Assembly (NCBI GenBank): GCA_963849325.1
Contig: CAWKHF010000001.1
Coordinates: forward strand, 512,001 to 576,000
From: an uncultured Planctomycetota bacterium
GTDB lineage: Bacteria > Planctomycetota > Planctomycetia > Gemmatales > Gemmataceae
DNA: 64,000 bases
Direction of reading: 5' to 3'
The notes under the pieces are model-generated. The model saw only the letters and a list, made by a program, of their open reading frames with translations. It did no database searches and was not told the DNA's origin. This document shows positions 20,826-43,092 of this stretch, piece after piece. The position numbers were made by a program, and so were the translations under genes. Within the stretch, counting starts at the first letter, position 1. Every line of letters begins with the position of its first letter.

Positions 20826-21407
20826 GACCGGCGCTCCAGAGAAGATGCTGGCGCAGCTCGGCCAGCTGGTTGGCCAGGTCGGCGAGGACGTGGATCTCTC
20901 CCGCCTCGGCTCGGCAGCCGCCGCGTTTCAGCGTCGCGTCGGCCTCGATGCGCAGCGCCGGCTCCCGCGCCGGCAACAGCGGCTGATCCGCGAGTCGGCG
21001 CCGCAACAGGGCCAGGTCTTCGGGGTGCAAGTACACCGTCATCGCCGGCGCCGCCGGCAGACGCGCCACGGCTTGCCGCACCATCTCCTCGATGGGGAAG
21101 TCGCCGGCTTGTAGTTTGTCGAAGACGAGCCGACCGGCGACCGCCACCGCCAGCTCGACCGCTGCTTGCCGCATCTCGGCGAGCAAGGAGTCGTGCCGCG
21201 TCGCCAGACGCTCCGCCGCGCCACGCAACTCCGCCAGCACCTGCTCGATCCTTTGTCGTTCCTCTGCGCCTCCCGCTCGGGGTCCGGTTGGACCCGCGGC
21301 GCCGGAACCGCGACGGCAGGCACCGGCGGCAGAGGGAGCTGACGGCCGGCGCGGACGACATGGCGCAGGCGCGGCGGCGAGCGAAAGGTGATCTCGAACA
21401 CGCGCAT
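20791..21407 (-). CDS. fliH: FliH (indel-split)
   Basis: VELAVAVA..TVYLHPEDL..ADATLKRGGCR. Lies between fliG and fliI. Confidence 0.85.
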
Positions 21408-21445
21408 GCCGGACCTCCATCCGCCGCTGCCGGGCTAGTGGGAAA

Positions 21446-22443
21446 TCACTCGTCCATCATCAACTCGCCCGCCTGATCGAGACGTTGGATCACGTCCACC
21501 AGCGCCTTCTGCGCCTGCCGCACCTGGGCGAGGGGCACCATGCCCAAAAACGCCATTTCCTCGGTCAGCGTCTCGCGCGCCCGCTTGGACAGGTTGTTCA
21601 GCACCTTCTCGCTGATGGCCTCGGTGGCGCCCTTGAGGGCCACGCCGAGCGTCTTGGAATCGATCTCGGACAGCAGTTTTTGCATCGAGCGATCGTGGAT
21701 GCGCAGCAGATCCTCGAACTGATACAGCAGTTCCTTGACGTGCCGGGCCATGTCCGGCTCGTTCTCCTCCAGGGCGGCGAGCACTTCCATGCGCTCGGTC
21801 TTTTCCAGGCAGCGCAGCATGGCGGCCATCTTCTCGTACTTGGCGTCGGCGCGGGTGTCGCCGCGATTGCCGGCGAGCGTTCGGCTCTTTTGCACCAAGG
21901 CGCGAGCGATGCGTTCGAGCAGGTCCGGGGGCGTGGCACCGAGCCGGCTGAGACGCACCGAAACGTCGCGGCGCATGTCCGGCTTGAGCTGGCGGAGGAC
22001 ATCGCCGGCCTTCTCCGCCGACAGGCAGTTGAGCACCAGCGAGACGGTGTGCGCCTGCTCGCCCTGTAATACCGCGGCCAGCATGTCGGGCGAGAAGCCC
22101 GTCAGCGCCCGCACGGGATCGGCGGGCAACGGCCCCATCTCCGGGACCGGAATTTCCGCGTCGGACGGCGGACGGTAGGCGGCAAGTTGTCGCGGCGTCG
22201 GCGCACCTCCGGGGGACGCGGGATCGACGTCCGGTTGCCGCAGCATCTCCTCGAATTCGCGGACCACGTCGCCCAGGTCGTCGGGCTTTTCGCTCTGCCG
22301 GCGCAGCTTGTCCAACTCCGGCCGCAGGCGGGCGCCGCGCGCCGGCCCAGCTCGGCCAGCACTTTCTCCGCCGTCTCCGCCGGCAGACTGTGCAGCAGAA
22401 GGGCGGCTTTCTCGATCCCCGTTCGCGTGGCCATGCCCGTCAT
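21446..22443 (-). CDS. fliG: Rotor protein FliG (one indel)
   Basis: GIEKAALLL, YQFEDL, LGVALKG and the torque helix NLSKRARETLTEE. Confidence 0.93.
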
Positions 22444-22453
22444 CCATCCTCGA

Positions 22454-23991
22454 TTATGCCGCCGCCTGTGCGGCCGGCTGCTCCGTCGCCGTCTCCGCCT
22501 GGTCGATCCAGCTGGGCCAGCGCCTTGGCCAATCGCTCGGGTTCCTTCCTGCGCCAGCTCGGCCAGCACATCGCCCTCCGGCCGCTCCTCGCCGGCTGGA
22601 GACGGGGCCGGCGCCTTCGGTCGCAGACGCCGGTAGTAGAGCACGCCGATCAGCAGCCCCACCAGCGACCGCCACGCCCAGCGAGCGTTGCGGGCCAGCG
22701 ACAAGTACCAGCGCCATGCGCTGCGCCTGCTGATACTCCGCCTCGACGCCCTCCAGCGTCGCTCCGCTGGCCAGCTTGACGTCGTTGACCTTGATCTCAT
22801 CGCGGCCCTTCTTGAAGCCGACCGCCTGCTTGATGATCTCCTCCGCCTCCGTCACCGTCAGGCCCGGCCCGGCGGCGCCGTCCGGCCGCGATAGGTCGAG
22901 CAGGGCCGCCACCGTCAGCCGTTCGACGTTGCCGCGCCCCTCCTCCATCTCCTGCTCGATCTTCGTCGCCCGCCATTCCGAATCGGTGTTTTCTTCGTTG
23001 TCGTTGCTGTGGTGCGTCGCTGCCGTGGACGCCGCTGCTCCGCCTTGCCCGGCAGGTTGCTGACCGCGCCGGCCGTGCCTCGGTTGGCCGGCGTGCCCGT
23101 GGTGGACTTGCGATTGGTGATCGTCTCCTTGACCAGCACGCGCTGCTCGGGATCGTAGGTCTCGTTGTTCGTCTTCTGGCGCTGGAAGTTGACCTCGGCC
23201 GTCACGCGCACCACGGCCCGGCCGGGACCGAGCACCTGGGACAGCATCTCCTCGGCGCGCGTGGACAGGTAGGTCTCCATCTCGCGGCGATACTCCATCT
23301 GCGTCGTCACCGGCGCCGGCGTGTCGCCGTGCGTCTCGCTGAGGACGCGGCCGCTCGTGTCCACCAGCGTCACGTTCTCCGCCGTCAGTCCCTCGACGCT
23401 GCGCGACACCAGGGCGACGATGCCCTGCGCCGTGCTGCGCGACAGCACGGCGCCGGGCTTGAGCTTGAGGACGACGCTGGCCGTCGCCGGTTTCTGCTCG
23501 CGGACGAACGGCGTCGGCTCCGGCCGCACCAGATGCACGCGCGCCTGCACGACCGGCTCGACCTGCATGATGGTCCGCGCCAGCTCCGCTTGCAGAGCGC
23601 GATCGAGGTTGACGTGCTGCAAGAACGGCGTCATGCCCACGTTCATTTCGTCGAACAGCTCGAAGCCCTTGCCCTTGCTGGGCACGCCCTCCACGGCCAG
23701 GTCGAGACGCAGCTGATGGACGCGCTCGGCCGGCACCAGGATCGTTGTCCCGCCCGCGCCGAGGCGAAACGGCACACCCTGGGCTTGCAGCTTGGCGGTG
23801 ACGGCGCCGGCGTCCTCGGCGCCGAGGCCGGAATACAGCACCTGATAATCGGTCTGGAAGGCGAAGAAGCCGACGGCCAGGACCACCGCCACGCACACGC
23901 CGGCCAGGACCAGCAGGGCGATGCGGCGCGGCCGGCTCATGCCCTGGTAGATGGCGCGCAACTGTTCGAGCAACTGACGAACAAATCGCAT
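22454..23991 (-). CDS. fliF: MS-ring protein FliF (indel-split)
   Basis: LYSGL..DAG, GFELFD, RALQAELARTI, ARVHL, TASVVL and VEGL..NVTLVD. Confidence 0.95.
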
Positions 23992-24019
23992 GGCCGTGGA
24001 CCTGAGTCTAACTCTATTC

Positions 24020-24081
24020 GTTTAGCCGCGACGCGCAGCGGAGCGCGAGACCTCGCGCTCCGCTGCGCGTCGCGGCGAAAC
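24020..24081. repeat. REP/REPIN-like inverted repeat, family B
   Basis: Family B arms between fliE and fliF. Confidence 0.9.
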
Positions 24082-24090
24082 AAGGGATTT

Positions 24091-24399
24091 CTACACCTGC
24101 ATCCGCATGATTTCCTGATAGGCGTCGCTGAGCCGATTGCGGATCTCCAGCACGAGATGGAAGCTCAGGTCCGCCTTGGCCATCGACAGCATCACGTTAT
24201 GCACGTTGTCGGCCTTTCCGGCGGCGAGGTTGTGTACCGCCTGTTCCGCATGGGCCTGCTGCGCGCCGGCATCGCCGAGGAAATTCGTGAGCAAGCGAGC
24301 GAAGCCGCCCGCGCCCGAACCCGGCACCGGCGCGGTCCCGCCACGCATACTTGCGGCCGCGCCGCTCGACGCGGCGGAGGATACGGGAGATAGGTTCAT
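24091..24399 (-). CDS. fliE: FliE
   Basis: VHNVMLSMAKADLSFHLVLEIRNRLSDAYQEIMRMQV. Confidence 0.95.
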   Translation of the reverse strand: MNLSPVSSAASSGAAASMRGGTAPVPGSGAGGFARLLTNFLGDAGAQQAHAEQAVHNLAAGKADNVHNVMLSMAKADLSFHLVLEIRNRLSDAYQEIMRMQV

Positions 24400-24435
24400 G
24401 TCTTCATCCTCGCATGATTAGGTCCAACCACCGGG

Positions 24436-24895
24436 TCATCCGCCCTGGCCGCGCAGCAGGCTGTACGACTGCTCGGTCATCTGGCGGAAGAATTGCATGG
24501 CCCGCAGGTTGGCCTCGTAGGCCCGGCTGGCCGTAATCATGTTCACCATCTCGACGGGCAGATCGACGTTGGGCATGCTCACGTAGCCGTCCTTGTCGGC
24601 GTCGGGATGGCCGGGGTTGATGGACGCGGTGAAAGTCGGACATGTCGTCGGCGATGCCCGTGACCTGCACGCCGCCCACAGGGGCGGCGGCGGCGCCGCG
24701 GCCCGCGCCGCGACGCACGCTCTGGTTGAGCACCGCCGAAAAGACCACATCCTGGCGCCGATACGGCCCGCCGTTGGCCGAGCGCGTCGAAAAGGCGTTG
24801 GCGATGTTGTTGGCCACCACTTCCAGACGCAGCCGCTCGGCGGCCAGGCCCGACGAGCTGATGTCCGCCGCGGCGAACAGAGGGTTTCCGTGCAT
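24436..24895 (-). CDS. flgC: Rod protein FlgC (one indel)
   Basis: [32 protein letters not shown] and [19 protein letters not shown]. Confidence 0.95.
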
Positions 24896-24922
24896 GAAAC
24901 ATCTCCTGCGAGCGCCAGAGGT

Positions 24923-25281
24923 TCAGTGCCCCGTGATGGCGCTGCGCATCATGTTGATGCGGCTGGTCAGCATTTGCGCGGCCATGCTGAAGGCAGCGAA
25001 TTCTTGTTCAGATTGCCCAGCTCTCGATCGAGGTCCACCGTGTTGCCGTCCTGCCGGGCCACGCCGCCCTGGGCCTCGACCACGCGCGGCGCGACCTGCA
25101 ACGCGCCCTTCTCTCCCTGTTTGCCCAAGGCCCGCGCGAAAGCGTCCTCGAAGGACACTTCCCGCTGGTGGTAGCCGGGCGTGTTGACGTTGGCGAGGTT
25201 CTGCGAAATGACGCGATGGCGCAGCTGGGCCACGTCCATCAGGCGGGCCAGCAGGTCGGATTGAGGGATGGTGAGACTCAT
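24923..25281 (-). CDS. flgB: Rod protein FlgB (one indel)
   Basis: [17 protein letters not shown] and [10 protein letters not shown]. Confidence 0.94.
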
Positions 25282-25288
25282 GCCGGTT

Positions 25289-25317
25289 GTATCGGTCGTA
25301 GCCGCCGCCGACCTTGA
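25289..25317 (-). promoter_or_regulatory. Sigma28-like promoter (long spacer) for the flgB operon
   Basis: TCAAG-N16-ACCGATAC, 7 nt before the flgB ATG. Confidence 0.6.
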
Positions 25318-25390
25318 ACCGTTCCGTCGTCGCATCCTCCGCGAGCGACCGGCTGCTCTCGGGCGGAATGAGGCGAGTGCGCGAAAGCCG

Positions 25391-25419
25391 TCAAGTGCGC
25401 GGACGCCCGGCGTCGATAA
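25391..25419 (+). promoter_or_regulatory. Sigma28-like promoter (long spacer) for motA
   Basis: TCAAG-N16-GTCGATAA. Confidence 0.6.
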
Positions 25420-25457
25420 GAAGGCGCTGTGTCCTCGGCTATCGACAAGGAGCGTCC

Positions 25458-26235
25458 ATGGACACCGGAACCATCGCTCGGCGCCTTGCTGGGCTTCGCG
25501 TTCATCGCCACGGCCATCCTCATGCACGGCAAGCTGTCCGACTTCGTGGACGTGCCCGGCGCCCTCGTCGCCTTCGGCGGTTCGTTCTCGGCGCTGTTCA
25601 TTTTCTTCCCCGCCAAGAAAGTGCTCGGCGTCTTCGGCGTGGTCAAGAACTGCGTCCTGCACAAGCTGCCCGACCCGCGCGCCGAGATTCGCCGCCTGAC
25701 CGACCTGGCCACGGTGGCGCGGCGCGACGGCTTGCTGGCCCTGGAAAAACGCTTGCCGGAAGTCACCGACCCCTTCCTCATCCGCGGCCTGGAGATGGTC
25801 ATCGACGGCACGTCGCGGGAGAAGGTCGAAGAGGTGCTGCAAATCGAGTTGCAGTACATCGAGGAGCGGCACGCCGTCGGCAAGAAGATGTTCGACCAGC
25901 TCGGCGCCTCGCTGCCGGCCTTCGGCATGGTCGGCACGCTCATCGGCCTGATCCAGATGCTGCACGAGCTGGACGATCCCAGCAAGATCGGGGCCGGCAT
26001 GGCCGTGGCGATGGTCACGACCTTCTATGGGGCCTTCGTGGCCAACATGATCTTTCTGCCGCTGGCCGGCAAGCTGGAGAACCGCAGCAAGGAGGAAGCC
26101 CTGCTCCGCGAGCTGATGATCCAGGGTCTGGTGGCCCTGATCGAGGGCGAAGCGCCGCGGTCGATGGAAGCCAAGCTCAAGGCCTTCCTGGCGCCCAAGG
26201 CGCGGAAGATCGAGGTCGAGACCGAGGCCGCGTAA
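25458..26235 (+). CDS. motA: Stator protein MotA (indel near the 5' end)
   Basis: ARRDGLLALE, PAFGMVGTLIGLIQML and MAVAMVTTFYG..AN. Confidence 0.95.
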
Positions 26236-26250
26236 CCCAGAGGCGCTACC

Positions 26251-27018
26251 ATGTCCACGCATCCGCACGCCGAAGCGGAGGCCGGATCGCCGCCGGACCA
26301 CCACGAAAAGCACGAGGCCGAGCACGTTGGCGGCCATCACGGCGGACGGGGCCAACACAAAAAAGGCCACGGCGATCACGGCGGCCACGGCGGAGGCGGG
26401 CACGGCGGCAGCTGGATCGTCACCTACAGCGACATGATCACGCTGCTGATGGCCTTCTTCATCTGCATCATCACCTTTGCCTCGAAAGAAACCGAGAAAT
26501 TCGATCCCAAAAAGGACTCGCTCATCGGCAACGCGGGCGGCTCCGGCATCGCCAGCACCGCTTCCAAGGGCACGTTGGAGCAGGACTCGGCCGTGTGGCG
26601 CCTTCGCATCCGCCAGGCGCGAGCCAGCGAATCCGGGGCGGAAATGGCGCCGCTGTACCAGAACCCCTCGCTGCAAACGACCGCCCACATCCTGCAAGCC
26701 CTGGACGAGGCCGAAGCAGGGCGGATGCGCGACGACTTCGCCGTCCGTCTGCCGCGCAGCCTGCTGTTCGAGAAAGACGATCGGCTGTCGTCCTCCGGCG
26801 TGCGTCTGCTGCATGCCTTGGCCGTCAACCTGCGCGATCTGCCCTACGATCTGCAATTCCAGGTCGGCCGCGACGACCACGTCGGGCAAGCGGTCAAGCT
26901 GTGCGGTTTCCTGGCGTCGCAGGAAGGGTATGAGCCGGCCCGGCTGGCCGTCGGCGGCCGGCCGCCGCGGGCCGGCGACGGCGATACCATCTGGCTCGTC
27001 CTGGTCCGGCAATTCTGA
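26251..27018 (+). CDS. motB: MotB-like stator protein 1 (His/Gly-rich N-terminus)
   Basis: WIVTYSDMITLLMAFFI TM with the conserved Asp. Degenerate OmpA-like C-terminus. Confidence 0.85.
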   Translation: MSTHPHAEAEAGSPPDHHEKHEAEHVGGHHGGRGQHKKGHGDHGGHGGGGHGGSWIVTYSDMITLLMAFFICIITFASKETEKFDPKKDSLIGNAGGSGIASTASKGTLEQDSAVWRLRIRQARASESGAEMAPLYQNPSLQTTAHILQALDEAEAGRMRDDFAVRLPRSLLFEKDDRLSSSGVRLLHALAVNLRDLPYDLQFQVGRDDHVGQAVKLCGFLASQEGYEPARLAVGGRPPRAGDGDTIWLVLVRQF

Positions 27019-27029
27019 AGGGCGTCTCC

Positions 27030-27738
27030 ATGAAACGCAAGCGAGCCGGCGGACACATCAACACCGAAGGTTGGATGATGTCCTACGCGGACATGGCCAC
27101 CATCCTGCTGGCCATGTTCATCGTCCTGAGCACGCTGGGCAAGGACCAGACCGGCATCAGCCTGGCCAACGGCACCGGCTCGTTCGTCAACGCCATGAGT
27201 TCCTTCGGCCTGGCCGGCCTGTTCCGCACTTCCGCCCGGCCCATCCCCATGAACAACCCAACGCCCCATTATCTCTATCATCCTCCGCCGACGAGGACAG
27301 CGGCCCGACGCGACCGCCGCCGCGTCATCGACGGCGAGGAGGAGCACCTGCAGCGCTTCTTGCGCGAACTCCAGCGTCAGTTTCCGGTCGAGCGTCCGTC
27401 GCGGCAGGTCGGCCAGGTGATCGATCGACCTGTACGAGCCGCTGCACAAGGAAGCACCCTACCTGGCGCCGCGCCACCTCGACGTACTCGATCAGGTGCG
27501 GCCGCTGCTGGAACGATCGAGCTTTCGCCTGTACCTGGTGGTGTGGACGCCGACGCCGAGTCCGTCGGCATGGACGCGCACCGCCGTCCTGGCTCGCCTG
27601 GTCGCCGCCGAGTTCGCCGCCAACTCGCACCTGCGGCCAGCCGCTGGCGAACGTCTCATCCCGCTCGCCCAGCCCTGGCGCTACCGCGACATCCGCCGGC
27701 CGGTCCTGTCGCTGGTCGTCGTCAAGACGGAGGAATAG
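27030..27738 (+). CDS. MotB-like stator protein 2 (indel-split)
   Basis: WMMSYADMATILLAMFIVLS TM with the conserved Asp. Divergent C-terminus. Confidence 0.8.
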
Positions 27739-27751
27739 CCGCACCTGTTCT

Positions 27752-27818
27752 CGTTTCGCCGCGACGCGCAGCGGAGCGCGGGATGCTCCCGCGCTCCGCT
27801 GCGCGTCGCGGCTAATCG
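27752..27818. repeat. REP/REPIN-like inverted repeat, family B
   Basis: Family B arms. Confidence 0.88.
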
Positions 27819-27935
27819 GGCAAGTCGGGGCGCAAAATTCCTCTCTCGACCCAACATCTTTTGACGAACCGGCTCTTATGAGCCAGATTATGAACAGCAA
27901 TGGTGCTCTCCGAGGCATTATCGAGATAACAAGCA

Positions 27936-29959
27936 ATGTCGATCCGGATGGCCGCAGCCCTCAAGGACGACGCCGCGATCGCCTCGAACGGGCGCGTGGC
28001 CGACCGCGATTCGCGGGAGGCGCTGCTGGCCCGCATCGCCGACCATCCCCACTTGCCCAGTCCGCCGGGCGTCGTCTTGCAGGTCCTGGAACGGGCCAGC
28101 CGCCTGGACAGCACGCCGGCCGACCTGGCCGCGGTCATTCACCGCGATCCCGCCCTGTGCGGCCAAATCCTCAAGGTCGTCAACTCGGCGCTGTACACCC
28201 TGCCGCGACCGACCACGTCCATCGAGCGGGCGGTGGCCCTGCTCGGCTTCAAGCCGGTTCGTTCGTTGGTGCTCAGCCTATCTCTGCCGGCCATGCAGCG
28301 GCAAACGTCCGGCCCACTGCCGCTGGAGACGTTCTGGAAGGAGTCGGTGGCCGGCGCCATCGTCGCTCACGAGCTGGCCCTGCACCTGGGCCGAACCAAT
28401 CCCGAAGATGATCTGGTGGCCGGTCTGCTGCGCGACCTCGGCACCCTGGCCTTGCAGCAAGTACGCCCCGCCGATTACGCCCGGCTGCTGGCCCATCCGT
28501 TCGAGGAGCGGAGCCTCCGTCCGTGCCAGCTGGAGGAGCAGCTGCTGGGGTTGAATCACGCCGAGGTCAGCGCCTTCCTGCTGCGCCGCTGGCGGCTGCC
28601 GGAGGACATCATCGAATCCGTCCGCTACCACCATGCTCCCGAGCAGGCGGCCGGACTGCCGCGGCCGGTGGTCGAGCGTGCTCGGCTGCTGGCCTTCGCC
28701 AGCCGGGTGGCCCTGCTGCAACTGGCCGCCGCCGGCGCCGAGTTGCTGCGCGAAATTCTCGCTCAGGCTCGGGAAGATTACGGCATGGACGAGGCCGCCT
28801 TGACGGCCTTCCTCGAACCGCTGGCCGAGAAAATCCAGGAGTTCGCCGCCGTCATGGACATCGACATCGGCGCCTGCGATCATTATCCCCGCGTCCTCGC
28901 TCGCGCCGCCGAGGAGCTGGTCAAGCTGACCGTCGAAACCAGCGTGGACAAGCTGCGCATCCTCGAACAGAAGCGACAGGCCGAAGAACAGACGCAACAC
29001 TGGCGCGAACAGGCCGATCGCCTGCGTCACGAGGTGGTGCGCGACAGCCTGACCGATGCCTTCAACCGCGGCTGCTTCGAGGAAGAACTAACGCTGGCCT
29101 TCCGGCGGGCCCGGCGGCGCGGCACCGTCCTGGGCCTGGTCTTTCTCGACCTCGACGACTTCAAGAGCATCAACGACCGCTTCGGCCATCCCTTCGGTGA
29201 TCGTGTCCTCAAGCGAGACGGCCGACAATCTGTTCGCCGCCGTGCGCCACGGCGACATCGTGGCCCGCTACGGCGGCGACGAATTTTGCGTCCTGGTGCA
29301 AAACACCTCGCCGGATGGACTGCGGGCCATGACCGAGCGGCTGTGGCAGGATCTCAACGCACCGGACCATCCGCGGCGACGGCCACACCGTCTCCGTCCG
29401 TGCCTCGATCGGCGCCGGCCGTGTGCTTGCCGCGCACCTACCCGCACTCGGCGGCGGAGTTCCTGGCCAGCCGTGGACCAGGCCATGTACGCCGCCAAGA
29501 CCACGGGAAAAAATCAGGTCGCGCTTCATCTCGCTGCTCGGATGAGGCGGACCTTTGCTTTCTCGGCGCGGTGCGAGCGCCGGCTGTTCAGCGTCTGGCT
29601 GGCCGAGCGCGGCGTCGGGCAAGCCGCAGGACGTGGGCATCGGCGTGCGCCGCGCCGGTTCGTGCTTCGAGGGACTGGGCCGACTGGCCCGCCGTCTCGG
29701 CTGGTTGACGACGGCCCAGCTGCGCGATCTGCTGCGCGAACGGCGGGCGACGCGGCGACGCTTCGGCGACGTCGCCCTCGCCCGAGGGTCCTTGACCGCC
29801 GAGCACCTGCACGTCTTGTTGGCCTTGCAGCTGGAGCCGCCCGAGGAGATCGCCGCGAACCTGGTCAATCAAGGGATCGCGGGAGAACCGGCGATGCGGG
29901 ACAATCTGCGCAAGTATTATCAATGGTTGCGGACTACACTCGACCAGCCGCAAGCGTAA
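27936..29959 (+). CDS. HDOD-GGDEF diguanylate cyclase with C-terminal MshEN-like repeats (indel-split)
   Basis: HDOD: DPAL..ILKVVNS, AGLLRDLG, WRLP..RYHH. GGDEF: DSLT, DLDDFKSINDRFGH, RHGD I-site, RYGGDEF. Confidence 0.9.
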
Positions 29960-29960
29960 G

Positions 29961-30028
29961 GGGCGAACGGCCGGCGTAAGCCGGCTGGTGCTGGTCCGCA
30001 CCAGCCGGCTTACGCCGGCCGTTCGCCC
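29961..30028. repeat. REP-like inverted repeat, family F
   Basis: GGGCGAACGGCCGGCGTAAGCCGGCTGGTGC plus its reverse complement. Confidence 0.85.
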
Positions 30029-30051
30029 TCCCCGCAAATTCCGAGTAATCC

Positions 30052-30080
30052 TCAAGGCCCGCCGGCCCACGAGCCGATGT
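30052..30080 (+). promoter_or_regulatory. Sigma28-like promoter (long spacer) for fliLMN
   Basis: TCAAG-N16-GCCGATGT. Confidence 0.58.
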
Positions 30081-30135
30081 TGAGTCGGGTGTCCTCACGA
30101 CCGCCGAGTCGCGAGACGCCGGAGAAGTGTTCGTC

Positions 30136-30637
30136 ATGGCGAAAGAAACCAACCCGGCACCACCGACCAAGGGCGGCGGCAAAAAAACGCTGCTGCTGCT
30201 CGGGGCGTGCGGCCTGCTGGCGCTGGCCGCCGGCGTGGCCGTGCCCTTCTTCCTGCTGCACGAGTCGGCCAAGGGCGGCCACGCCAAGGACGACGGCGGT
30301 CACGATCAGGCCGCCAAGCACGCCTACGTCCCCTTCGGCGATGTCATCGTCAATCTCAATGAAGATCGTCTTGACTCGCTATTTGAAGGTCAAGCTCCTG
30401 CTGGTGGTCGCCGCCCGCGACGAGAAGTCGATGACCGAGCTGATCGGAAAGAAGAAGCCGGCGCTGAAGAACTGGCTGATCGGTCATTTGTCGGACAAGT
30501 CGCTGCAAGAGGTCAGCGGGGCCTCGGGCGTCAACAAGCTGCGCCGCGAAATTTGGCACGAGTTTAACAAGGAACTCTTCCCCGACGGCTCGGAGAAGGT
30601 CCTGGACATCTTCTTTGAAGAATTCGTGGTGCAATGA
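30136..30637 (+). CDS. fliL: FliL (one indel)
   Basis: N-terminal TM, VIVNL..RYLKVK, and C-terminal IFFEEFVVQ. Confidence 0.9.
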
Positions 30638-31494
30638 CGCTCAAGCCCTACAACTTCCGCAAACCGGATCGTCCCGCCGGGACGCTGGAACACCGGCTGA
30701 CGGCCTGGCTGCGGGCGGCCGGGCCGCTGGCCGCGGAGAGGGGAGCGCAGCACCTGCCTTTCCGAATCGAAATGGCGCTGCGCGGCGTCGAGAGCGTGGC
30801 GCCGTCCGAGGCGCTGGGGCGTTTGCCCGACGCCGCCGTTGGCTATCGCGTCGCCTTCGCCGGCGAAGCGCCGAGCATGTTGTTCGTCCTGGCCGCGGCC
30901 GTTGGCCCTGGCCCTGGTCAACGGCGCCCTGGGCGAGACGCCCACCGAGCTGCCGGCCGACCGCACCTGACCGTCGTCGAGCAATCGCTGTGCGAATACC
31001 TGATGCAAAACCTGTTGGCCGCCGTCCTGCAGAGACGTGGACCGGGACGGCGCCGCTGGCGCTGACCGTGAGCGAACGCGAGCCGTCGCCGCGCTGGACA
31101 AGGCTGTTCGTCAAGGCGGAGCAGGTCGTGCAATGCACCTTTAGCCTGCGCGGCCCGTTCGGCGAGCAGGATTGGTGCTGGCTGGCCCCCTACCAGGCGC
31201 TGCACGAGCGCGTCAACCGCGCCGACGCCGTCGTCCAGGGACAGGCCGAGCAGGACATGCCGCGCAAGCTGGAATCGCTGGTCCGCGAATTGCCGGTCGA
31301 GGTGATGGTGGAGCTGGGCATGGTCGAGTTGCCGATCGCGCAGCTGGCGGCCTGGCGCCAGGGGACTTGCTCCTGCTTAACCAGCGCGTCGGCGAGCCGC
31401 TGACGGCGCGCGTGGATGGGCGTCCGAAGTTCCGCGGTTGGCCCGGCCGGGTCGGCTCGCGGCAATCCTGCAGATCGAATCCGCCCGCGAGTGA
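30634..31494 (+). CDS. fliM: Switch protein FliM, short form (indel-split)
   Basis: KPYNFRKP, LTVVEQ and a C-terminal SpoA domain (LAPGDLLLL..KFRGWPG). Lies between fliL and fliN. Confidence 0.85.
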
Positions 31495-31503
31495 GGGGAC
31501 ACA

Positions 31504-36255: not shown

Positions 36256-37265
36256 TCATGGCTTCCTCGGAGTCACGGCCTGGCGTCGCGGCCGCAGCTC
36301 GTCCAGCTGCCCTTCCAGCTCGCGCCGCTCTTTCATCGCCCGTAGATACCAACGGGCGTTCTCGACCAGAACGTCGTTGCCGTCGGAGTTGGCCACTTCG
36401 CGGTACAGCATCGACGCCTCGTCCGTCTTGCCCAGCTTGCGCAGACAGCAAGCCATCATGTACTGGATGGTGACCCGAGCGTCCGTCCGCTGCTCGTCCT
36501 GCTGGAGCTGACGATACTGCTGCAGGGCGGCGGCGTGATCGCCCGCCAGGAAGAGCGACTGGGCCAACGACAGCGGATCGACCGGGGCGGTTGTCAATAA
36601 CTTGGCCGAAGCGTCCGCCTGTTTCGCGGGCGGCCCGGATGGCAGAGGTTGCGCCGAATGGGCCGACGAGGCCGACGACGGTGATGGCGCGACAGAGGTG
36701 GTTGGCGGTTTGACGGCCGTTTGCGGATTGGGCGGGGTTTTCTTGTCCTCGTTCGGTTTCGCGGATGGCGCCGGTGCCAGCCCTTTGTTGTTCATGCGGA
36801 CGGCCTTGCCCACCAGCTCGGTGATGCGGCGGCGCAGCCGGGCGGCATCGTCGCCGCCGGCGCGAGACTCCCGAACGGTGAGCAAAGACATCTCCTCGTT
36901 GAGCATCGCCTCGCGCTCCATGCGCAGACCCTCGATCTCGCGGTGTAGACCCTGGATTTCGGCCGGAGGAGCGGTGCGGAGGTAGCCCGGTAGGGCCAGG
37001 CGCGGCGGGGCCGGCGTCTGCTCGTGCGGCATGGGCGCGGCCTCCTCGCCGGGCGACGACGGCGGCATCGGGACGCCGCCTGCCGGACCAGGCAGCTCCC
37101 GAGGAGCGGGCGCCGGCTCTTCGCGCGGCGTCGATGCGGGCACCGGCCGCGGCGCGGGCAAGGCATCCTCGCCGGGCGCAGCGCCGGCGGCGCCCCGGGC
37201 GGCGGCTCCGCCGCCAGCAGACCGACACCCACGAGTACGACCAGACATCTCGCCGACCTGTGCAT
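36256..37265 (-). CDS. Exported Pro-rich coiled-coil TPR protein (indel near the 5' end)
   Basis: Signal-like CLVVLVGVGLLAA. C-terminal TPR LAQSLFLAGD..ALQQY..YMMACCLRKLGK. Confidence 0.75.
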
Positions 37266-37388
37266 GGTTGTTCGATCCCGCTTGACGGCGGAGGGAGGAC
37301 CGGCTTCAATTGGGCCGCCACGGTTGGCGTGGCTGGAAGTCCCTCACCCCTCGCCTTGGTTGGGGGCTGTCGAAATAACAGGTTCTTC

Positions 37389-37446
37389 GTTTAGCCGCGA
37401 CGCGGAGCGCGTCTGTCTCGCGCTCCGCTGCGCGTCGCGGCTAAAC
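37389..37446. repeat. REP/REPIN-like inverted repeat, family B
   Basis: Family B arms. The left arm has a 5-bp deletion. Confidence 0.85.
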
Positions 37447-37468
37447 TTACCCGGATGTCCCCCCAGTC

Positions 37469-37885
37469 ATGGAAAACCGACGCCAGACCTATCGCCACTC
37501 CTTCGTCCCCGCGGAAGCTCTGCGCGTGGAACTCTACCGGCCGGGAACGCAGGACAAGATCGACTGCGATTTGCTGGACCTCTCTCTCGGCGGCATGCGG
37601 GTGCGGCTGCGGAACGCGGTCCAGCGCCTCCGCGCCGGCGACTCGGTCATCACCCATCTGCTCGGCCGCGAGGCGCCGTCGCCGGTGGAGCTGAGCCTGT
37701 CCCTGCCTTCCTGCGTCGCCCACGTGGACCGGCACCGCGATGGCATCATCTACGGCGTCCAATTTCTGCCCAGCGCCAACCCCGGCGCCAACGAGAAGGT
37801 CGAGAAGACGCTGGCGCGTTTTCTCATCGCGGAGCAACGGCGGTTGCGACGGCAGGCGCAAGCCACGGATGACGCGGAGGCGTAA
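37469..37885 (+). CDS. PilZ-domain protein
   Basis: RRQTYR (RxxxR), DLSLGG (DxSxxG) and YGVQF. Confidence 0.9.
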   Translation: MENRRQTYRHSFVPAEALRVELYRPGTQDKIDCDLLDLSLGGMRVRLRNAVQRLRAGDSVITHLLGREAPSPVELSLSLPSCVAHVDRHRDGIIYGVQFLPSANPGANEKVEKTLARFLIAEQRRLRRQAQATDDAEA

Positions 37886-38027: not shown

Positions 38028-40188
38028 TCACGGCGGCAATTCGCCGGATAGACAGCGGATGGCCTTGTCGCGCTCGCCGATCTGTTCGTAGGCGCCGGCC
38101 ATGAGACGCAGCACGGCCGGCACGTCCACGCCGCTGGACTGCTGTAACAATTCTCGACAGCACTTCAGACAATCTTGCGGTTTTTTTTCGCGCAGGGCGA
38201 TCTCGGCCAGGCGCAACCGGGCGCGTGTCGCCTCCGTCCGACGGCCCGGCGGCGATCAGCTTGCGGTACAGCGCGACGGCATCGTCGCGGCGGTCGGCCG
38301 CCGTGTACGCCTCGGCCAGGGACATCGACACCTCCGCCGCTAGCGGGCCGCCCATCCGGGGCAGGGCCTTCTCGTATAGCCGCACCATCTCCTCGTGCAT
38401 GCCCATCTCTTGATACGCCTGGCCGCGGAGCACCAGTCCCGCGGGGCCGAGAATGGGATCGTCGCGCACGGCCAGAAGGGCGGCCAGCAGGTCGGCCGCC
38501 TCGCGCTGACGACGGCGGCGGTCGGTGGTGACGGCACGGAAGCGGGCCAGGGTATCCAGGAAGGCGGCGGCGTTGCGGTAACGGTCCTGGCCGACCAGTT
38601 CGCGGTGTTCCAGCAGGACGGCGTTGGCGGCGCGCGGGTTGTCGGTCAGCAGGTGAGCGGCGGCCATGGTGATCGCCGCCGCCGCGTGGGCCGGCGAACC
38701 GGGACCGCTGCCCAGTCCACGCCGCAATGGCGACAACGCCTGTTCGGGATCGCCTTCCTCCAGATAGATGCGGCCGACGCGCCAGTAGGCCAACGGCGCC
38801 AGCTCGTGGGCCGGCGCCCGATCGACGACCCGGTAGAACGCCTGGCGCGCCCCGGCCGATCGCCCTGACGGCCGCGCAGCAGGCCGAGATTGTAATGGGC
38901 CTCGATGGCCAGCGGCGAACGCGGCCATTCGCGGACCAGTCGGCCGTACCAGGTGATGGCCTCGTCGAGCCGGCCGTCCAGCGCCTCCAGGTCGCCCAGT
39001 TCGAGATAGGCCGCCGGCGTCAGCGGATGGCGCGAGTAGGTCAGCACCGCCTCGCGCAGCGCCCGCCGAGCGTTGCTGGCCCGCAGCGTCTTGAGTTCCT
39101 CCGCCGACGTTTCCTCCTCGCTGGCAAACGTCAGCCGATCGCCGCGAATGTGCCACACCAGCCCCAACGATTCGGCCAGGACGCGCAGGGCGTCCGGCAG
39201 CGACGTGCGCTCCAGGGCGACTACCACGCTGCGCCCCTCCACCTGCTGGCGGGCGCGGGGCGTCCATTCGATGCGCAAACGGGCCTGCTCGGCCAGGCGA
39301 TCAAGCAGGCCGGTGACGGCCATTTGATGCACGCAAACGCGGACCAGGGCGACGGCGCCTGGCTGGACCTCGATGACCTCCTCGCCCTCCGCCGCCTCGA
39401 CCTCCGGCTCGCGGCCTGGTCCCCCCCAGTCCACGGCGCGCTCCAGGCACCAGTCGGAGGTGAAGGGGCTGACCGGGTCGTCGCGGAACGGTCCCGGCGG
39501 CTCGTTGGGCAAGATCTCCAGCGGGCCGGCCAGGGCGAGCAGGTAACGAGCGTCGGCCAGGAACGGTTGACCGCGCAGGTTCGGCGCGGCGGAGCGGCGG
39601 ATCAAATCGCACAACAGCGCCTTGGCCTCGGCCGGTCGGCGCAGTGCGCAGCCACACCCGCGCCTGTCCCAGAAGGGCGATGGCGGCGGTTCGCGCCGAC
39701 GGCGTGCGGCCGGCCAGCTTCCGGTAGGCCGTCAGCGCCTCGTCCCAGTGGCCGATTCCCTCCAGCGACAGACCGAGACGATACTGAAAGGCGTCGCGCA
39801 GCTCGGCGGCGGCGCGGTCGCTGAAGGAGCGACACAGGACCAGGGCCAGCTCGAATCGAGACACGCGGAGGAGACGGTCCACCTCGTCCAACTCGGCCTG
39901 GGCGGCGCGGCCCTCCGCCGGCGCCGGAGCCGCCGGCGGCTGAAGAACGGCGGCTTGCGGATGCTCGGCTGACACCGACGGCTCGGGCGTCTCGGGCAAG
40001 ACCAGGCGCGAGCCGAGACGGAACGTGCCGGCGACCAGGCCCAGCTGAAACAGACACACCAACGGCCAGCCGAACGAGCGCAGCCAGCCGCGTACCCCGC
40101 GCCGGAGCGGCCGGGGCGGATCGGGCGCATCGTCGGCCGTCGGGGCGTTGCCACGGCCAACCTCATCGGGGGCCTTCCCGGGCCGCAT
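38028..40188 (-). CDS. Membrane-anchored multi-TPR protein with STN/secretin-N0-like domain (indel-split)
   Basis: N-terminal TM and TPRs (YRLGLSLE.GHWDEAL, AYLELGDLE, AHYNLG, AYWRVGRIY). Middle region LLDRLAEQARLRIEW..SLPDALRVLAESLGLVW. Confidence 0.75.
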
Positions 40189-40816: not shown

Positions 40817-40890
40817 GACAGGACAACCACGCTGACGTGGCGGGTTACGCAAGGTCCCCTCATCTTCCCATGTAGGAGAGGCAACACGGT

Positions 40891-43092
40891 ATGCTGTCCC
40901 TTGTCAACAATCTGTCGGCGTTGACCGCCGAGAACAACCTGAACAACGCGAACAGCGCGCTGAGCACCTCGCTGCAGCGTTTGTCGTCGGGCTTGCGCAT
41001 CAACAGCGGAGCGGACGACCCGGCCGGCCTGGTCATTAGCCAGGAGCAGCAGGCGCAGATGAGCGGCCTGCAAACGGCCATCTCCAACACCTCCACGGCC
41101 ACCAACGTGGTGCAGATCGCCGACGGGGCGCTCAACGAGACCAGCTCACTGCTGCTGCAGATCCGCGGCCTGGCGGTCAGCGCCGCCAACTCCGGCACCA
41201 ACGATGCTACCAGCTTGGCCGCCGACCAGGCCCAGATCGCCAACGCCCTCCAGACCATCGACAGCATCGCCAACACGACGCGGTTCGGTAGCACGACCCT
41301 GCTCGACGGCAGCCACAACGGGACGGCCGGCGCGACGACCAGCGGCAATACGACCGGAGTGACCGCCACGGCCACGGGTGCGACTGCCGGCACCTATACG
41401 ATTAGCGGCGTGACGCTGGCTACCGCGGCGACCGTCAAGGGAAGTGTCTCCGGTGGTGGATACGCCAGCACCGTTAGTACGGCCCTGGCTGTCGGTCAGA
41501 AGGAAACCTTCAACATTTCCGTCGGTAGTGCCCCGAACTCGGCGATCACGGTCGACAACAGCAGTGGCACGACGGCCATGACCGTCCAGAATGTCATGGA
41601 CGCGATCAACACGCAGTTAACCTCGGATTCCATCGCTGCCAAGGCTTCCTTCGCCTCCAATCAGATCGAAATCACGTCCACGGCCACGGGCAGCAGCGCT
41701 AGCGTCGCGATTTCGAATGATAACGTGAGCGGTACTCTCCCGGCAGGTACAGCATTAGGTGGAGGAGTATCGACCAACTCGGTCTTCGGTACGGATGCTA
41801 CCGCAGCTACCATCACCGGAAGCACCACCTACGGCGCCACCACTAGCACTGCCCTGACTTCCAGTCAGACGGAATCCTTCACGATTACAGACGGGAATGG
41901 CAACTCTACCACTGTCAGTCTCAACGGCAGTACCCAGAGCACCGTCGGGCAGATCATCACCGCGATCAACAACGATGCTACCACTAACAACGTCGGCGTC
42001 TCGGCTTCGTTTTTAGGCGGCCACATCGTACTTACGTCCACGGCTACCGGCAGCAGCGCCAGCATCTCGATTTCGAGTGATACCCCTCCCTCCTCGGGAG
42101 GTACCGGGTTCACGAACACCGGCACCCCGGTCACCGGTACGAATGCTAGCAAAGCTACCCTCACCGGAAGCGTCCCCGGTGGATACACCAACGTTAATAG
42201 CGCTGCCCTGAATGCCGGTCAGAAGGAAACATTCACGATTTCCGACGGAACCAACACGGCCTCTGTCAATCTCGACAACACAGCCGGCACGAGCGCCATG
42301 ACCGTCCAGGACGTCATCAACCAGATCAACTCCGATGCTACCACTCACAGCGTCGGTCTCAAGGCTTCGTTTGCAGGCAACCAAATCGTACTTACGTCCA
42401 CGGCCACCGGCAGCACTGCCAATGTTCAGGTTCAAAATGATACTCTTACCAACCCGGCAGGTACAGGATTCACAGCCACATCGACGACGGGAGCGGATAT
42501 CAAGGCCACGGTCAACAATGGCACCACCAGCAGCAGCGTGACGGGAACCGGCAACACGCTGACGGTCGCCACGGGCCTCACCTTCACGGCGGATCCGACC
42601 ACGTATAACACCGGCGGTGGCAACACGACGATAACGGTGGCGGCCTCCAACGCCCTCGTCTTCCAGATCGGCGCCAACGCCGGCGACACGGCCAGCCTGT
42701 CCATCGCCAGCGCCCTGAGCACGGCGCTGGGCAAGAACGCCTCCGCCACGCCCGGCAGCGGCGAAACGACAAATCAATTCTCCAGCCTCAATACCATCGA
42801 CGTCACCAAGAATGCCTCGGACGTCATCGAGGTGGTGGACAAGGCGATCAGCGACGTCTCGAGCTTGCAAGGCAATCTTGGCGCCTTCCAGGACAATACG
42901 CTGCAGGCGACCTCCGCGAATCTGCAGTCGGCCTTGCAGAACACCACGGCGGCCGATTCGACCATCCGGGACACCAACTTCGCCACGGAGACGGCCAACT
43001 TCACCCAGGACCAGGTGCTGGTGCAGGCGGGCACGCAAGTGCTCAAGAACGCCAACCAACTCCCGCAGCTGGTGCTGACCCTGTTGCAGTAA
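40891..43092 (+). CDS. fliC: Flagellin (733 aa)
   Basis: RLSSGLRINSGADDPAGL, QIADGALNE, FQIGAN, LGAFQ, STIRDTNFA and ANQLPQLVL.LL. Confidence 0.97.
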   Translation: MLSLVNNLSALTAENNLNNANSALSTSLQRLSSGLRINSGADDPAGLVISQEQQAQMSGLQTAISNTSTATNVVQIADGALNETSSLLLQIRGLAVSAANSGTNDATSLAADQAQIANALQTIDSIANTTRFGSTTLLDGSHNGTAGATTSGNTTGVTATATGATAGTYTISGVTLATAATVKGSVSGGGYASTVSTALAVGQKETFNISVGSAPNSAITVDNSSGTTAMTVQNVMDAINTQLTSDSIAAKASFASNQIEITSTATGSSASVAISNDNVSGTLPAGTALGGGVSTNSVFGTDATAATITGSTTYGATTSTALTSSQTESFTITDGNGNSTTVSLNGSTQSTVGQIITAINNDATTNNVGVSASFLGGHIVLTSTATGSSASISISSDTPPSSGGTGFTNTGTPVTGTNASKATLTGSVPGGYTNVNSAALNAGQKETFTISDGTNTASVNLDNTAGTSAMTVQDVINQINSDATTHSVGLKASFAGNQIVLTSTATGSTANVQVQNDTLTNPAGTGFTATSTTGADIKATVNNGTTSSSVTGTGNTLTVATGLTFTADPTTYNTGGGNTTITVAASNALVFQIGANAGDTASLSIASALSTALGKNASATPGSGETTNQFSSLNTIDVTKNASDVIEVVDKAISDVSSLQGNLGAFQDNTLQATSANLQSALQNTTAADSTIRDTNFATETANFTQDQVLVQAGTQVLKNANQLPQLVLTLLQ

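What the first reader, a model, noticed from the sequence alone, without database searches (positions are those of the whole stretch)
25458..27738. One MotA with two tandem MotB paralogs, both lacking the peptidoglycan-binding signature
Seen: both B subunits keep the Trp..Y(S/A)D TM motif with the ion-binding Asp, and MotA keeps its rotor-contact R..E. Neither C-terminus shows the OmpA-like GHTD..N..LS..RA motif. MotB1 also has a His/Gly-rich cytoplasmic N-terminus. Known: stators are A5B2 and anchor to peptidoglycan through MotB's OmpA-like domain. Dual-stator bacteria usually duplicate both A and B. Inference: this may be a heterodimeric B1/B2 stator anchored to a protein scaffold instead of peptidoglycan.
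Basis: partly seen in the sequence, partly recalled or inferred. Interest (0 to 1): 0.75.

Follow-up and report, generated by a model that had tools for sequence, protein, structure and literature searches.

The report
Planctomycete flagellar stator with two MotBs
A planctomycete flagellar gene cluster encodes one MotA motor protein and two very different MotB partners whose cell-wall-anchoring domains keep their fold but have lost the usual wall-binding residues, which suggests an unusual mixed stator.

Summary
Window 25458-27738 encodes motA, motB1 and motB2 inside a large flagellar cluster. Both B proteins match MotB_plug, keep the channel Asp, and give no OmpA Pfam match at E<=1.

Three corrections apply:
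- motA and motB2 each carry one frameshift. At least ten frame changes occur in neighbouring flagellar genes, and relatives have intact motB2. These look like assembly errors, not decay.
- The C-termini are not domain-less. AlphaFold2 plus Foldseek and profile comparison show degenerate OmpA-like folds. B1 lacks 14 residues of the binding loop. In B2 the Asp is deleted and the Arg is replaced.
- B1 and B2 are old, divergent paralogs.

The trio is a Gemmatales-type trait. The order motA-B1-B2 is seen in 10 of 12 related loci. One locus has motA-B2 only. Three Pirellulales loci have a single OmpA-positive motB.

A modelled B1:B2 periplasmic heterodimer scored 0.89 against a best control of 0.01. 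Homodimers were not tested.

The heteromeric reading is plausible and unproven. A protein scaffold in place of peptidoglycan is untested. This is a new variant of a known kind.

The parts
25458..26235 (+). motA, a PomA/MotP-like A subunit. It has one frame change at about 25476 in this assembly: codons 1-6 are in one frame and 25477-26235 in the next.
   Evidence: PF01618 E 5.7e-29. NCBIfam best hit is PomA at 232 bits, below the cut-off of 341. PomA 8bri_A E 1.2e-49, with R-R...E aligned to PomA R88/K89/E96. The N-terminus was compared with L001 and L003 MotA. 87.5% identity to L001 MotA.
26251..27018 (+). motB1, 255 aa. It has a His/Gly-rich cytoplasmic N-terminus, a TM helix with D61, a canonical-looking plug, a linker, and a degenerate OmpA-like domain (about 134-255) that lacks 14 residues of the binding loop.
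   Evidence: PF13677 E 4.3e-14, profile positions 9-54 of 58. AF2 C-domain pLDDT above 90. Foldseek gave 35 PDB hits at E<=1e-3, led by OmpA-like, MotS and MotB domains. hhalign against canonical MotBs: probability 99.8, E 3e-30, with a 14-column gap.
27030..27738 (+). motB2, about 236 aa when read through. It has a TM helix with D21, a family-specific juxtamembrane motif, a linker, and a degenerate OmpA-like domain. One frame change lies at 27420-27426: 27030-27422 is in one frame and 27424-27738 in the next.
   Evidence: PF13677 E 1.9e-9, profile positions 3-39 of 58. Read-through gives P0001. 120 listed relatives at E<=2.1e-51, most near 240 aa. The junction lies in a conserved block. AF2 of ortholog P0122. 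Foldseek gave 12 PDB hits at E<=1e-3, all OmpA-like. hhalign probability 97.9, E 6e-13.
27758..27812 (.). A perfect 26-bp-stem palindrome (REP-like element) 20 nt after the motB2 stop. [quoted passage not shown]
   Evidence: RNA fold -74.5 kcal/mol, z -9.75. The same 24-mer occurs 13 times in the window at up to 3 mismatches, against 0.01 expected. Its role as a terminator is inferred.
26236..26250 (+). A 15-nt gap between motA and motB1. The motB1-motB2 gap at 27019-27029 is 11 nt. Such short spacers are consistent with one operon.
   Evidence: Co-transcription is inferred.

Best explanation
This is the flagellar stator operon of a Gemmataceae-type planctomycete: one PomA-like MotA and two anciently diverged MotB-type subunits, transcribed together.

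Shown
- Both B proteins keep the single TM helix with the ion-coupling Asp.
- Both end in a compact domain with the OmpA-like fold.
- The canonical peptidoglycan-binding Asp and Arg are not conserved in either. B1 has lost 14 residues of the binding loop. B2 has lost the Asp-bearing stretch, and the Arg position is Gln in most of its family (Leu in the window).

Inferred as most likely
- B1 and B2 pair through their periplasmic domains and sit together inside one MotA pentamer as an A5:B1:B2 unit. The two B chains would then differ in plug and in anchor.
- Anchoring would rest on non-canonical contacts. The candidates are the conserved B2 pocket residues W175, R186 and R226, whose ligand is unknown (wall or protein), and possibly other motor proteins.

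The frame changes in motA and motB2 are most likely sequencing or assembly errors, not gene decay.

The confidence given is for the whole statement, including the heteromer. The 'shown' part alone I rate at about 0.9.
For: Gene identity and context
- Pfam and NCBIfam matches and PomA alignment.
- The trio lies between flgB and an HDOD-GGDEF gene, fliL, fliM and fliN, within a flagellar cluster at 11.6-46 kb.

Fold
- AF2 C-domains have pLDDT above 90 with a helix/strand order like OmpA-like domains.
- Foldseek top hits are OmpA-like, MotB, MotS and PomB periplasmic domains: 35 and 12 hits at E<=1e-3.
- hhalign against 25 OmpA-positive MotBs: E 3e-30 for B1 and E 6e-13 for B2.

Lost signature
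- At the Arg column, canonical MotBs have R in 25 of 25. The B1 family has R in 29 of 64 (Q in the window). The B2 family has Q in 81 of 114 and R in 3 of 114.
- The Asp column is D in 10 of 64 B1 proteins and is deleted in B2.

Conservation
- 12 genome loci hold a full-length B2. Ten show motA-B1-B2. In one a contig edge cuts motA but B1 and B2 are present.
- B1 and B2 trees group the same loci together.
- Three Pirellulales loci have motA plus one motB with PF00691 above its cut-off.

Pairing
- The modelled complex of the B1 and B2 periplasmic domains (the P0003/P0122 pair; their contigs have the same length) scored 0.89, with the best of 3 controls at 0.01.
- That mark was reached by 116 of 157 solved complexes and 2 of 215 mismatched pairs. 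My own alignments were used, so these counts hold only roughly.
- The runs agree in at least 82% of their contacts, and the partner's pLDDT is at least 87.

Asymmetry
- B1 and B2 share only 39% identity over 36 aa of the TM region. Nothing else is detectable pairwise.
- B1 matches the plug part of PF13677. B2 does not.

Frameshifts as errors
- fliG, fliF, flgC, motA, motB2, the HDOD-GGDEF gene, fliL and fliM all change frame relative to L001 proteins.
- B2 identity to L001 is 69% before the break and 70% after it.
Against: - L005 (a Gemmataceae MAG) has motA followed after about 50 nt by motB2, with no motB1 in 12.7 kb. B2 may therefore work without B1.
- Homodimers B1:B1 and B2:B2 were not modelled. 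Solved MotB-C homodimers exist, so the heterodimer pass may only reflect that likeness (caveat printed).
- In Aquifex, each MotB was tested with MotA separately, and each N-terminal chimera gave some motility in E. coli (PMC4525482). This is a precedent for alternative stators that share one MotA.
- Contig-length matching of the protein hits found a B1 partner for only about 20 of 33 B2 proteins on contigs of 10 kb or more. This is a lower bound, because the lists are truncated and pre-filtered.
- The A5:B1:B2 unit itself could not be modelled.
- Loss of wall binding is inferred from residues only.
Confidence: 0.45

Rival explanations
1. There are two alternative stators that share one MotA. 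A5:B1(2) and A5:B2(2) would form separately and be exchanged at the motor according to load, ion or growth stage, as proposed for bacteria with several stator sets.
For: - Aquifex has the same gene order, and each of its B proteins was tested separately with MotA (PMC4525482).
- L005 keeps motA-motB2 without motB1.
- Both B proteins keep the Asp and a full domain set.
- Canonical MotB-C domains crystallise as homodimers (entries listed).
Against: - In Aquifex the two TM regions are 97% identical. Here they share 39% identity over 36 aa, yet both would have to fit the same MotA pore.
- The modelled B1:B2 interface is confident: 0.89 against 0.01.
- B1 and B2 stay adjacent, with 11-15 nt spacers, in 11 of 12 loci.
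Confidence: 0.33
2. Only one B (B2, the better conserved) is the torque-generating, anchoring subunit. B1 is an accessory or regulatory B-like protein, for example a non-anchoring competitor or brake.
For: - B2 is more conserved: mean column identity 48% over 114 sequences, against 35% over 64 for B1.
- B1 has the larger loss in the binding loop.
- B1 is absent from L005.
- An HDOD-GGDEF gene and a PilZ gene in the cluster suggest motor regulation.
Against: - B1 is the one closer to canonical MotB: E 3e-30, with the plug retained.
- B1 keeps D61 nearly invariant.
- No data bear on regulation.
Confidence: 0.1
3. The locus is decaying. motB2 and motA would be real pseudogenes, and the odd C-termini would reflect relaxed selection.
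For: Frame changes occur in motA and motB2 in this window.
Against: - At least ten frame changes hit core flagellar genes in 10 kb while amino-acid identity to relatives stays at 60-90% on both sides. This is the pattern of indel errors.
- B2 is intact in 11 of 12 related loci, and the twelfth (L008) is also split.
- The C-domain features are family-wide and conserved.
Confidence: 0.05

Closest known systems
Aquifex aeolicus motA/motB1/motB2 operon (PMC4525482; passages read)
   Same: One motA is followed by two motB genes in one operon. The periplasmic regions of the two B proteins differ strongly.
   Different: [quoted passage not shown]
- Here the TM regions share 39% identity over 36 aa.
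- B2 sits on a very long branch apart from B1 and canonical MotBs.
- Neither B matches PF00691.
PomAB / MotPS / Clostridium MotAB-type stator units (solved A5B2 structures 8bri, 6ysf, 6ysl)
   Same: - MotA aligns end to end with PomA and C. sporogenes MotA at E about 1e-49.
- The B1 profile aligns with C. sporogenes MotB from the TM helix into the first strand-helix-strand of the OmpA-like domain, E 2.9e-10.
- The TM Asp is present in both B proteins.
   Different: Solved units hold two identical B chains with a canonical PG-binding motif. Here there are two different B genes, and the motif is lost.
Pirellulales motA-motB (loci L020, L027, L033)
   Same: They belong to the same phylum and have a similar MotA (phmmer E 1e-51 to 1e-53). 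The MotB N-terminus resembles B2, and fliL lies downstream.
   Different: They have a single motB with PF00691 above its cut-off (32-41 bits against 27.2) and keep the Arg-bearing helix.
One A subunit with two different B-type subunits in non-flagellar 5:2 motors (Myxococcus AglR-AglQ-AglS; exbB-exbD1-exbD2). Recalled knowledge, apart from the AglRS mention in PMC12505986.
   Same: One MotA/TolQ/ExbB-type gene is followed by two distinct B-type genes, and neither B anchors through a canonical OmpA motif.
   Different: Those systems are not flagellar, and their B subunits lack the plug, the linker and the OmpA-like fold. Here both B proteins keep them, inside a flagellar cluster.

Membership tests
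Flagellar stator B subunit (MotB/PomB/MotS) | N-terminal single TM helix with the conserved ion-coupling Asp (PF13677) | tested here: met
   B1 E 4.3e-14 and B2 E 1.9e-9. D61 is nearly invariant in 64 B1 sequences, and D21 is invariant in 114 B2 sequences.
Flagellar stator B subunit (MotB/PomB/MotS) | Plug segment directly after the TM helix | tested here: inconclusive
   The B1 match covers profile positions 9-54 of 58. The B2 match stops at position 39 of 58, and B2 has its own invariant juxtamembrane motif instead.
Flagellar stator B subunit (MotB/PomB/MotS) | Encoded next to a MotA/PomA gene within flagellar genes | tested here: met
   motA lies directly upstream. flgB, flgC, fliE, fliF and fliG lie on one side, and fliL, fliM and fliN on the other.
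Flagellar stator B subunit (MotB/PomB/MotS) | C-terminal OmpA-like domain | tested here: met
   The feature is met at fold and profile level only. The Pfam model PF00691 gives no match at E<=1.
OmpA-like peptidoglycan-binding domain (PF00691) | Sequence signature with the ligand-binding Asp and Arg (the motif named in the finding) | tested here: not met
   B1 has a 14-column deletion. Its Arg column is R in 29 of 64 (Q in the window), and its Asp column is D in 10 of 64. In B2 the Asp stretch is deleted, and the Arg column is Q in 81 of 114 and R in 3 of 114. Canonical MotBs have R in 25 of 25.
OmpA-like peptidoglycan-binding domain (PF00691) | Binding of peptidoglycan | not testable with these tools
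   This needs pull-downs with purified domains. B2 keeps W175 and R226 invariant and R186 in 108 of 114, so a non-canonical site cannot be excluded.
Aquifex-type motA/motB1/motB2 operon | Two motB genes with near-identical TM regions behind one motA | tested here: not met
   The gene order is the same, but TM identity is 39% over 36 aa, against 97% in Aquifex.
Heteromeric B dimer in one 5:2 unit | B1 and B2 in the same complex | tested here: inconclusive
   The periplasmic-domain model passed: 0.89 against a best control of 0.01. Homodimers and the full unit were not modelled, and there are no biochemical data.

The most novel reading that the evidence does not exclude
Gemmatales flagella are driven by an obligately heteromeric stator, MotA5:MotB1:MotB2.
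- The built-in 5:2 asymmetry would be matched by two non-equivalent B chains: one with the canonical plug (B1) and one with a new juxtamembrane motif (B2).
- Their degenerate OmpA-like domains would form a single composite anchor. That anchor would no longer use the canonical peptidoglycan pocket, and may bind a lineage-specific periplasmic partner or an unusual wall feature.
Probability: 0.3. Interest if true: 0.75.

Novelty: new variant of a known kind. Interest (0 to 1): 0.55.

Why it matters
Every flagellar stator unit solved so far holds two identical B chains, which lock onto peptidoglycan through a conserved OmpA-type pocket.

A lineage-wide stator with two different B chains and no canonical pocket would be informative in two ways:
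- It would be a natural experiment on how the two B chains divide labour, in plugging and in anchoring, inside an asymmetric 5:2 motor.
- It would show how a motor is held in place in planctomycetes, whose cell envelope has long been debated.

It also bears on annotation. These proteins carry MotB_plug only and are often labelled 'hypothetical', so the planctomycete stator is easy to mis-count.

Tried and rejected
- I asked whether the frame changes cluster at GATC sites, which would suggest methylation-linked base-calling errors. 4 of 10 junction windows hold GATC against 2.2 expected, because GATC is common here at 5.9 per kb. I dropped the idea.
- I tried contig-length matching of B1 and B2 protein hits to count co-occurrence. 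It gives only a lower bound, about 20 of 33, because the lists are truncated or pre-filtered. I did not use it as a rate.
- The listing of cluster members, meant to name the organisms of the closest orthologs, was not available. The identities of the 9.33-Mb and 1.76-Mb contigs stayed unchecked.
- The full A5:B1:B2 model and the homodimer models were not possible, given limits of 6 chains and 1000 residues and one job.
- The Atlas look-up only repeated that the nearest clusters are Planctomycetota MotB_plug clusters, some with OmpA in 67-79% of members.
- Six literature searches found no paper describing a planctomycete two-MotB stator or its lost PG motif. PMC12505986 places Planctomycetota stators in its TGI4 and TGI5 groups but, in the passages I read, says nothing on this. 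Its supplements were not opened.
- The closed collections (metagenome contigs, viral contigs) were not searched.
Full report
WHAT IS THERE

The window is GC-rich (0.62-0.71). Its closest named protein relatives are from Gemmataceae.

Positions 25458-27738 hold three co-oriented genes:
- motA, ATG 25458 to stop 26235.
- motB1, 26251-27018, 255 aa.
- motB2, 27030-27738.

The spacers are 15 and 11 nt. Twenty bases after the motB2 stop lies a perfect 26-bp-stem palindrome (-74.5 kcal/mol, z -9.75). It belongs to a repeat found 13 times in the window, against 0.01 expected. I read it as the 3' end of a three-gene unit; this is inferred.

The trio sits inside a flagellar cluster spanning about 11.6-46 kb:
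- A sigma factor, flhA, flhB, fliP, fliO, fliI, fliH, fliG, fliF, fliE, flgC and flgB on the minus strand.
- Then motA-B1-B2, an HDOD-GGDEF gene, fliL, fliM and fliN.
- Then hook genes, flagellin, fliD and fliS.

GENE IDENTITIES

- MotA matches PF01618 at E 5.7e-29. Its best NCBIfam model is PomA, at 232 bits against a cut-off of 341.
- MotA aligns end to end with Vibrio PomA (8bri_A, E 1.2e-49) and Clostridium MotA. The window's R-R...E falls on the residues I count as PomA R88, K89 and E96. Their role in rotor contact is recalled knowledge.
- Both B proteins match PF13677 MotB_plug (E 4.3e-14 and 1.9e-9) and keep the Trp...Tyr-x-Asp TM motif.
- Neither matches PF00691 OmpA at E<=1.
- The B1 N-terminus holds 13 His and 16 Gly in 54 residues. 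A shorter Gly/His run precedes the TM helix in the OmpA-positive MotBs closest to B1 (consensus of A5). The window's tract is therefore an expansion of a common feature.

FRAMESHIFTS

- motB2 changes frame at 27420-27426. Fourteen aligned sequences show the break inside a conserved block that relatives read straight through.
- motA changes frame at about 25476, after its first six codons.
- Compared with the intact proteins of locus L001, fliG, fliF, flgC, the HDOD-GGDEF gene (several times), fliL and fliM (twice) also change frame. That is at least ten changes in about 10 kb.
- Identity to L001 is the same on both sides of the motB2 break: 69% and 70%.
- I conclude that the assembly is indel-rich and that motB2 is not a pseudogene. 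A link to GATC sites was tested and not supported.

THE C-TERMINAL DOMAINS

- AlphaFold2 with family alignments (64 and 114 sequences) gives confident C-domains with pLDDT above 90. Both show the same helix/strand order.
- Foldseek against the PDB returns OmpA-like domains first. For B1 these are PA0833, B. subtilis MotS, H. pylori MotB and others, with 35 hits at E<=1e-3. For B2 they are Salmonella OmpA-C, OprF, A. baumannii OmpA, MotS and Salmonella MotB, with 12 hits at E<=1e-3.
- Profile comparison with 25 OmpA-positive MotBs gives probability 99.8, E 3e-30 for B1, and probability 97.9, E 6e-13 for the B2 C-domain.
- So the fold is kept and the signature is lost.
- In B1, 14 columns that carry the Asn-Trp-Glu-Leu part of the loop are deleted. 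The Arg column is R in 29 of 64 family members (Q in the window). The Asp column is D in only 10 of 64.
- In B2, the stretch that bears the Asp is deleted, Asn and Ser become Ala, and the Arg column is Q in 81 of 114 and R in 3 of 114 (Leu in the window).
- In the canonical set the Arg is R in 25 of 25.
- One caveat applies. B2 keeps W175, W219, R226 and P227 invariant, and R186 in 108 of 114. R186 lies one helical turn before the lost Arg and outside the modelled dimer interface. A non-canonical binding site is therefore possible.

RELATION OF B1 TO B2

- They are homologous over TM and C-domain only at profile level: probability 94.5, E 7.6e-8, 19% identity.
- Pairwise BLASTP finds only the TM segment, at 39% over 36 aa.
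- In a tree of 52 B subunits, B2 forms a fully supported clade on a very long stem. B1 falls on the side of the canonical MotBs. The canonical rows were chosen by similarity to B1, which biases this placement.
- They are old paralogs, not a recent tandem duplicate.

DISTRIBUTION

- A scan of one genome per species (185,579 species) found 98 confirmed stretches. The best 80 were kept as loci. Twelve of these hold a full-length B2, and all 12 are Planctomycetota MAGs except L011. L011 is labelled Alcaligenaceae but is nearly identical to the Gemmataceae locus L012.
- Profile searches of those 12 loci show motA-B1-B2 in 10. In L004 a contig edge removes motA while B1 and B2 are present. L005 has motA-B2 with no B1.
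- B2 is a single ORF in 11 of 12 loci and is split in L008.
- Three Pirellulales loci have motA and one motB with PF00691 above its cut-off, followed in L027 by a fliL-like gene.
- In the protein collection, 108 B1-type proteins (E<=1e-20) and 120 listed B2-type proteins (of 160 hits at E<=1e-3; the listed ones have E<=2.1e-51) all lack PF00691.
- The two-B, signature-less stator is thus a trait of the Gemmatales-type lineage.

HOW IT MAY WORK

- A model of the two periplasmic domains was run on the pair P0003/P0122, whose contigs have the same length, each with its family alignment.
- It scored 0.89, with the best of 3 controls at 0.01. That mark was reached by 116 of 157 solved complexes and 2 of 215 mismatched pairs. 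My own alignments were used, so these counts hold only roughly.
- The three runs agree in at least 82% of their contacts, and the partner's pLDDT is at least 87.
- The interface pairs the third strands and the long helices of the two domains. I recall the solved MotB-C homodimers as using similar elements, so the pass may reflect that likeness.
- Together with the tight operon, the shared tree pattern, and the non-equivalent TM and plug segments, I rate a mixed A5:B1:B2 unit as the single most likely reading (about 0.45).
- Two alternative homodimeric stators sharing MotA come next (about 0.33). That reading is supported by the Aquifex precedent (PMC4525482) and by L005.
- Whether the unit is held by peptidoglycan through a new site or by a protein partner is open. 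Nothing here tests it.

COMPARISON WITH WHAT IS KNOWN

- One motA with two motB genes is in print for Aquifex aeolicus. There the TM regions are 97% identical, and both B proteins are described with an OmpA-like PG-binding domain.
- A 2025 survey of MotAB across 205 genomes lists Planctomycetota among its stator groups but, in the passages I read, does not describe this arrangement.
- Six full-text searches found no description of it.
- I file it as a new variant of a known kind.

Noticed in passing
window 21400-31500: At least ten frame changes relative to intact relatives hit fliG, fliF, flgC, probably flgB, motA, motB2, the HDOD-GGDEF gene, fliL and fliM. fliE, motB1 and fliN read through. 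The assembly looks indel-rich.
   Followed up: partly
window 11303, 14497, 24027, 27760, 31948, 37416, 46164, 47856: A GC-rich palindromic repeat gives 13 matches to its 24-base arm (up to 3 mismatches), mostly as inverted pairs, at eight intergenic sites, against 0.01 expected by chance. The copy after motB2 folds into a 26-bp stem.
   Followed up: partly
window 27936-29979 (+) and 37445-37882 (+): An HDOD-GGDEF protein is encoded directly after motB2, and also in L001. A PilZ-domain protein lies within the flagellar cluster. This hints at c-di-GMP control of the motor.
   Followed up: no
window 36259-37305 (-) and 38649-39731 (-): Two TPR-repeat ORFs lie inside the flagellar cluster. They are possible periplasmic scaffold candidates. 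Their location and relatives were not examined.
   Followed up: no
L001 6711-8250 (-): Right after motB2, on the other strand, lies a second stator-like pair: a MotA with MotA_N plus MotA_ExbB domains, and a 192-aa MotB_plug-only protein without any OmpA-like part. It was not found in the window (20-32 kb examined) or in the 14 other loci searched.
   Followed up: partly
L005 5173-6756: motA is followed after about 50 nt by motB2, with no motB1 in the 12.7-kb locus. fliQ, fliR and flhB-like genes follow. motA in this locus also shows a frame change near its 3' end.
   Followed up: partly
L011 versus L012: The L011 contig is labelled Alcaligenaceae, but its B1 and B2 are almost identical to those of the Gemmataceae locus L012. 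It is probably a mis-binned contig.
   Followed up: no
window 27285-27335: The basic stretch in the B2 linker differs from the acidic linkers of relatives. Another reading frame of the same bases gives an acidic stretch. This could be a pair of compensating indels, but it is unverified.
   Followed up: no
window 40876-43089 (+): There is a long flagellin of 738 aa, with the Flagellin_N and Flagellin_C domains at its two ends.
   Followed up: no
window, whole: Among 117 ORFs scanned at E<=1e-5, none matched OmpA, FlgH or FlgI families. P-ring and L-ring genes and any OmpA-type anchor protein, if present, lie outside this window.
   Followed up: no
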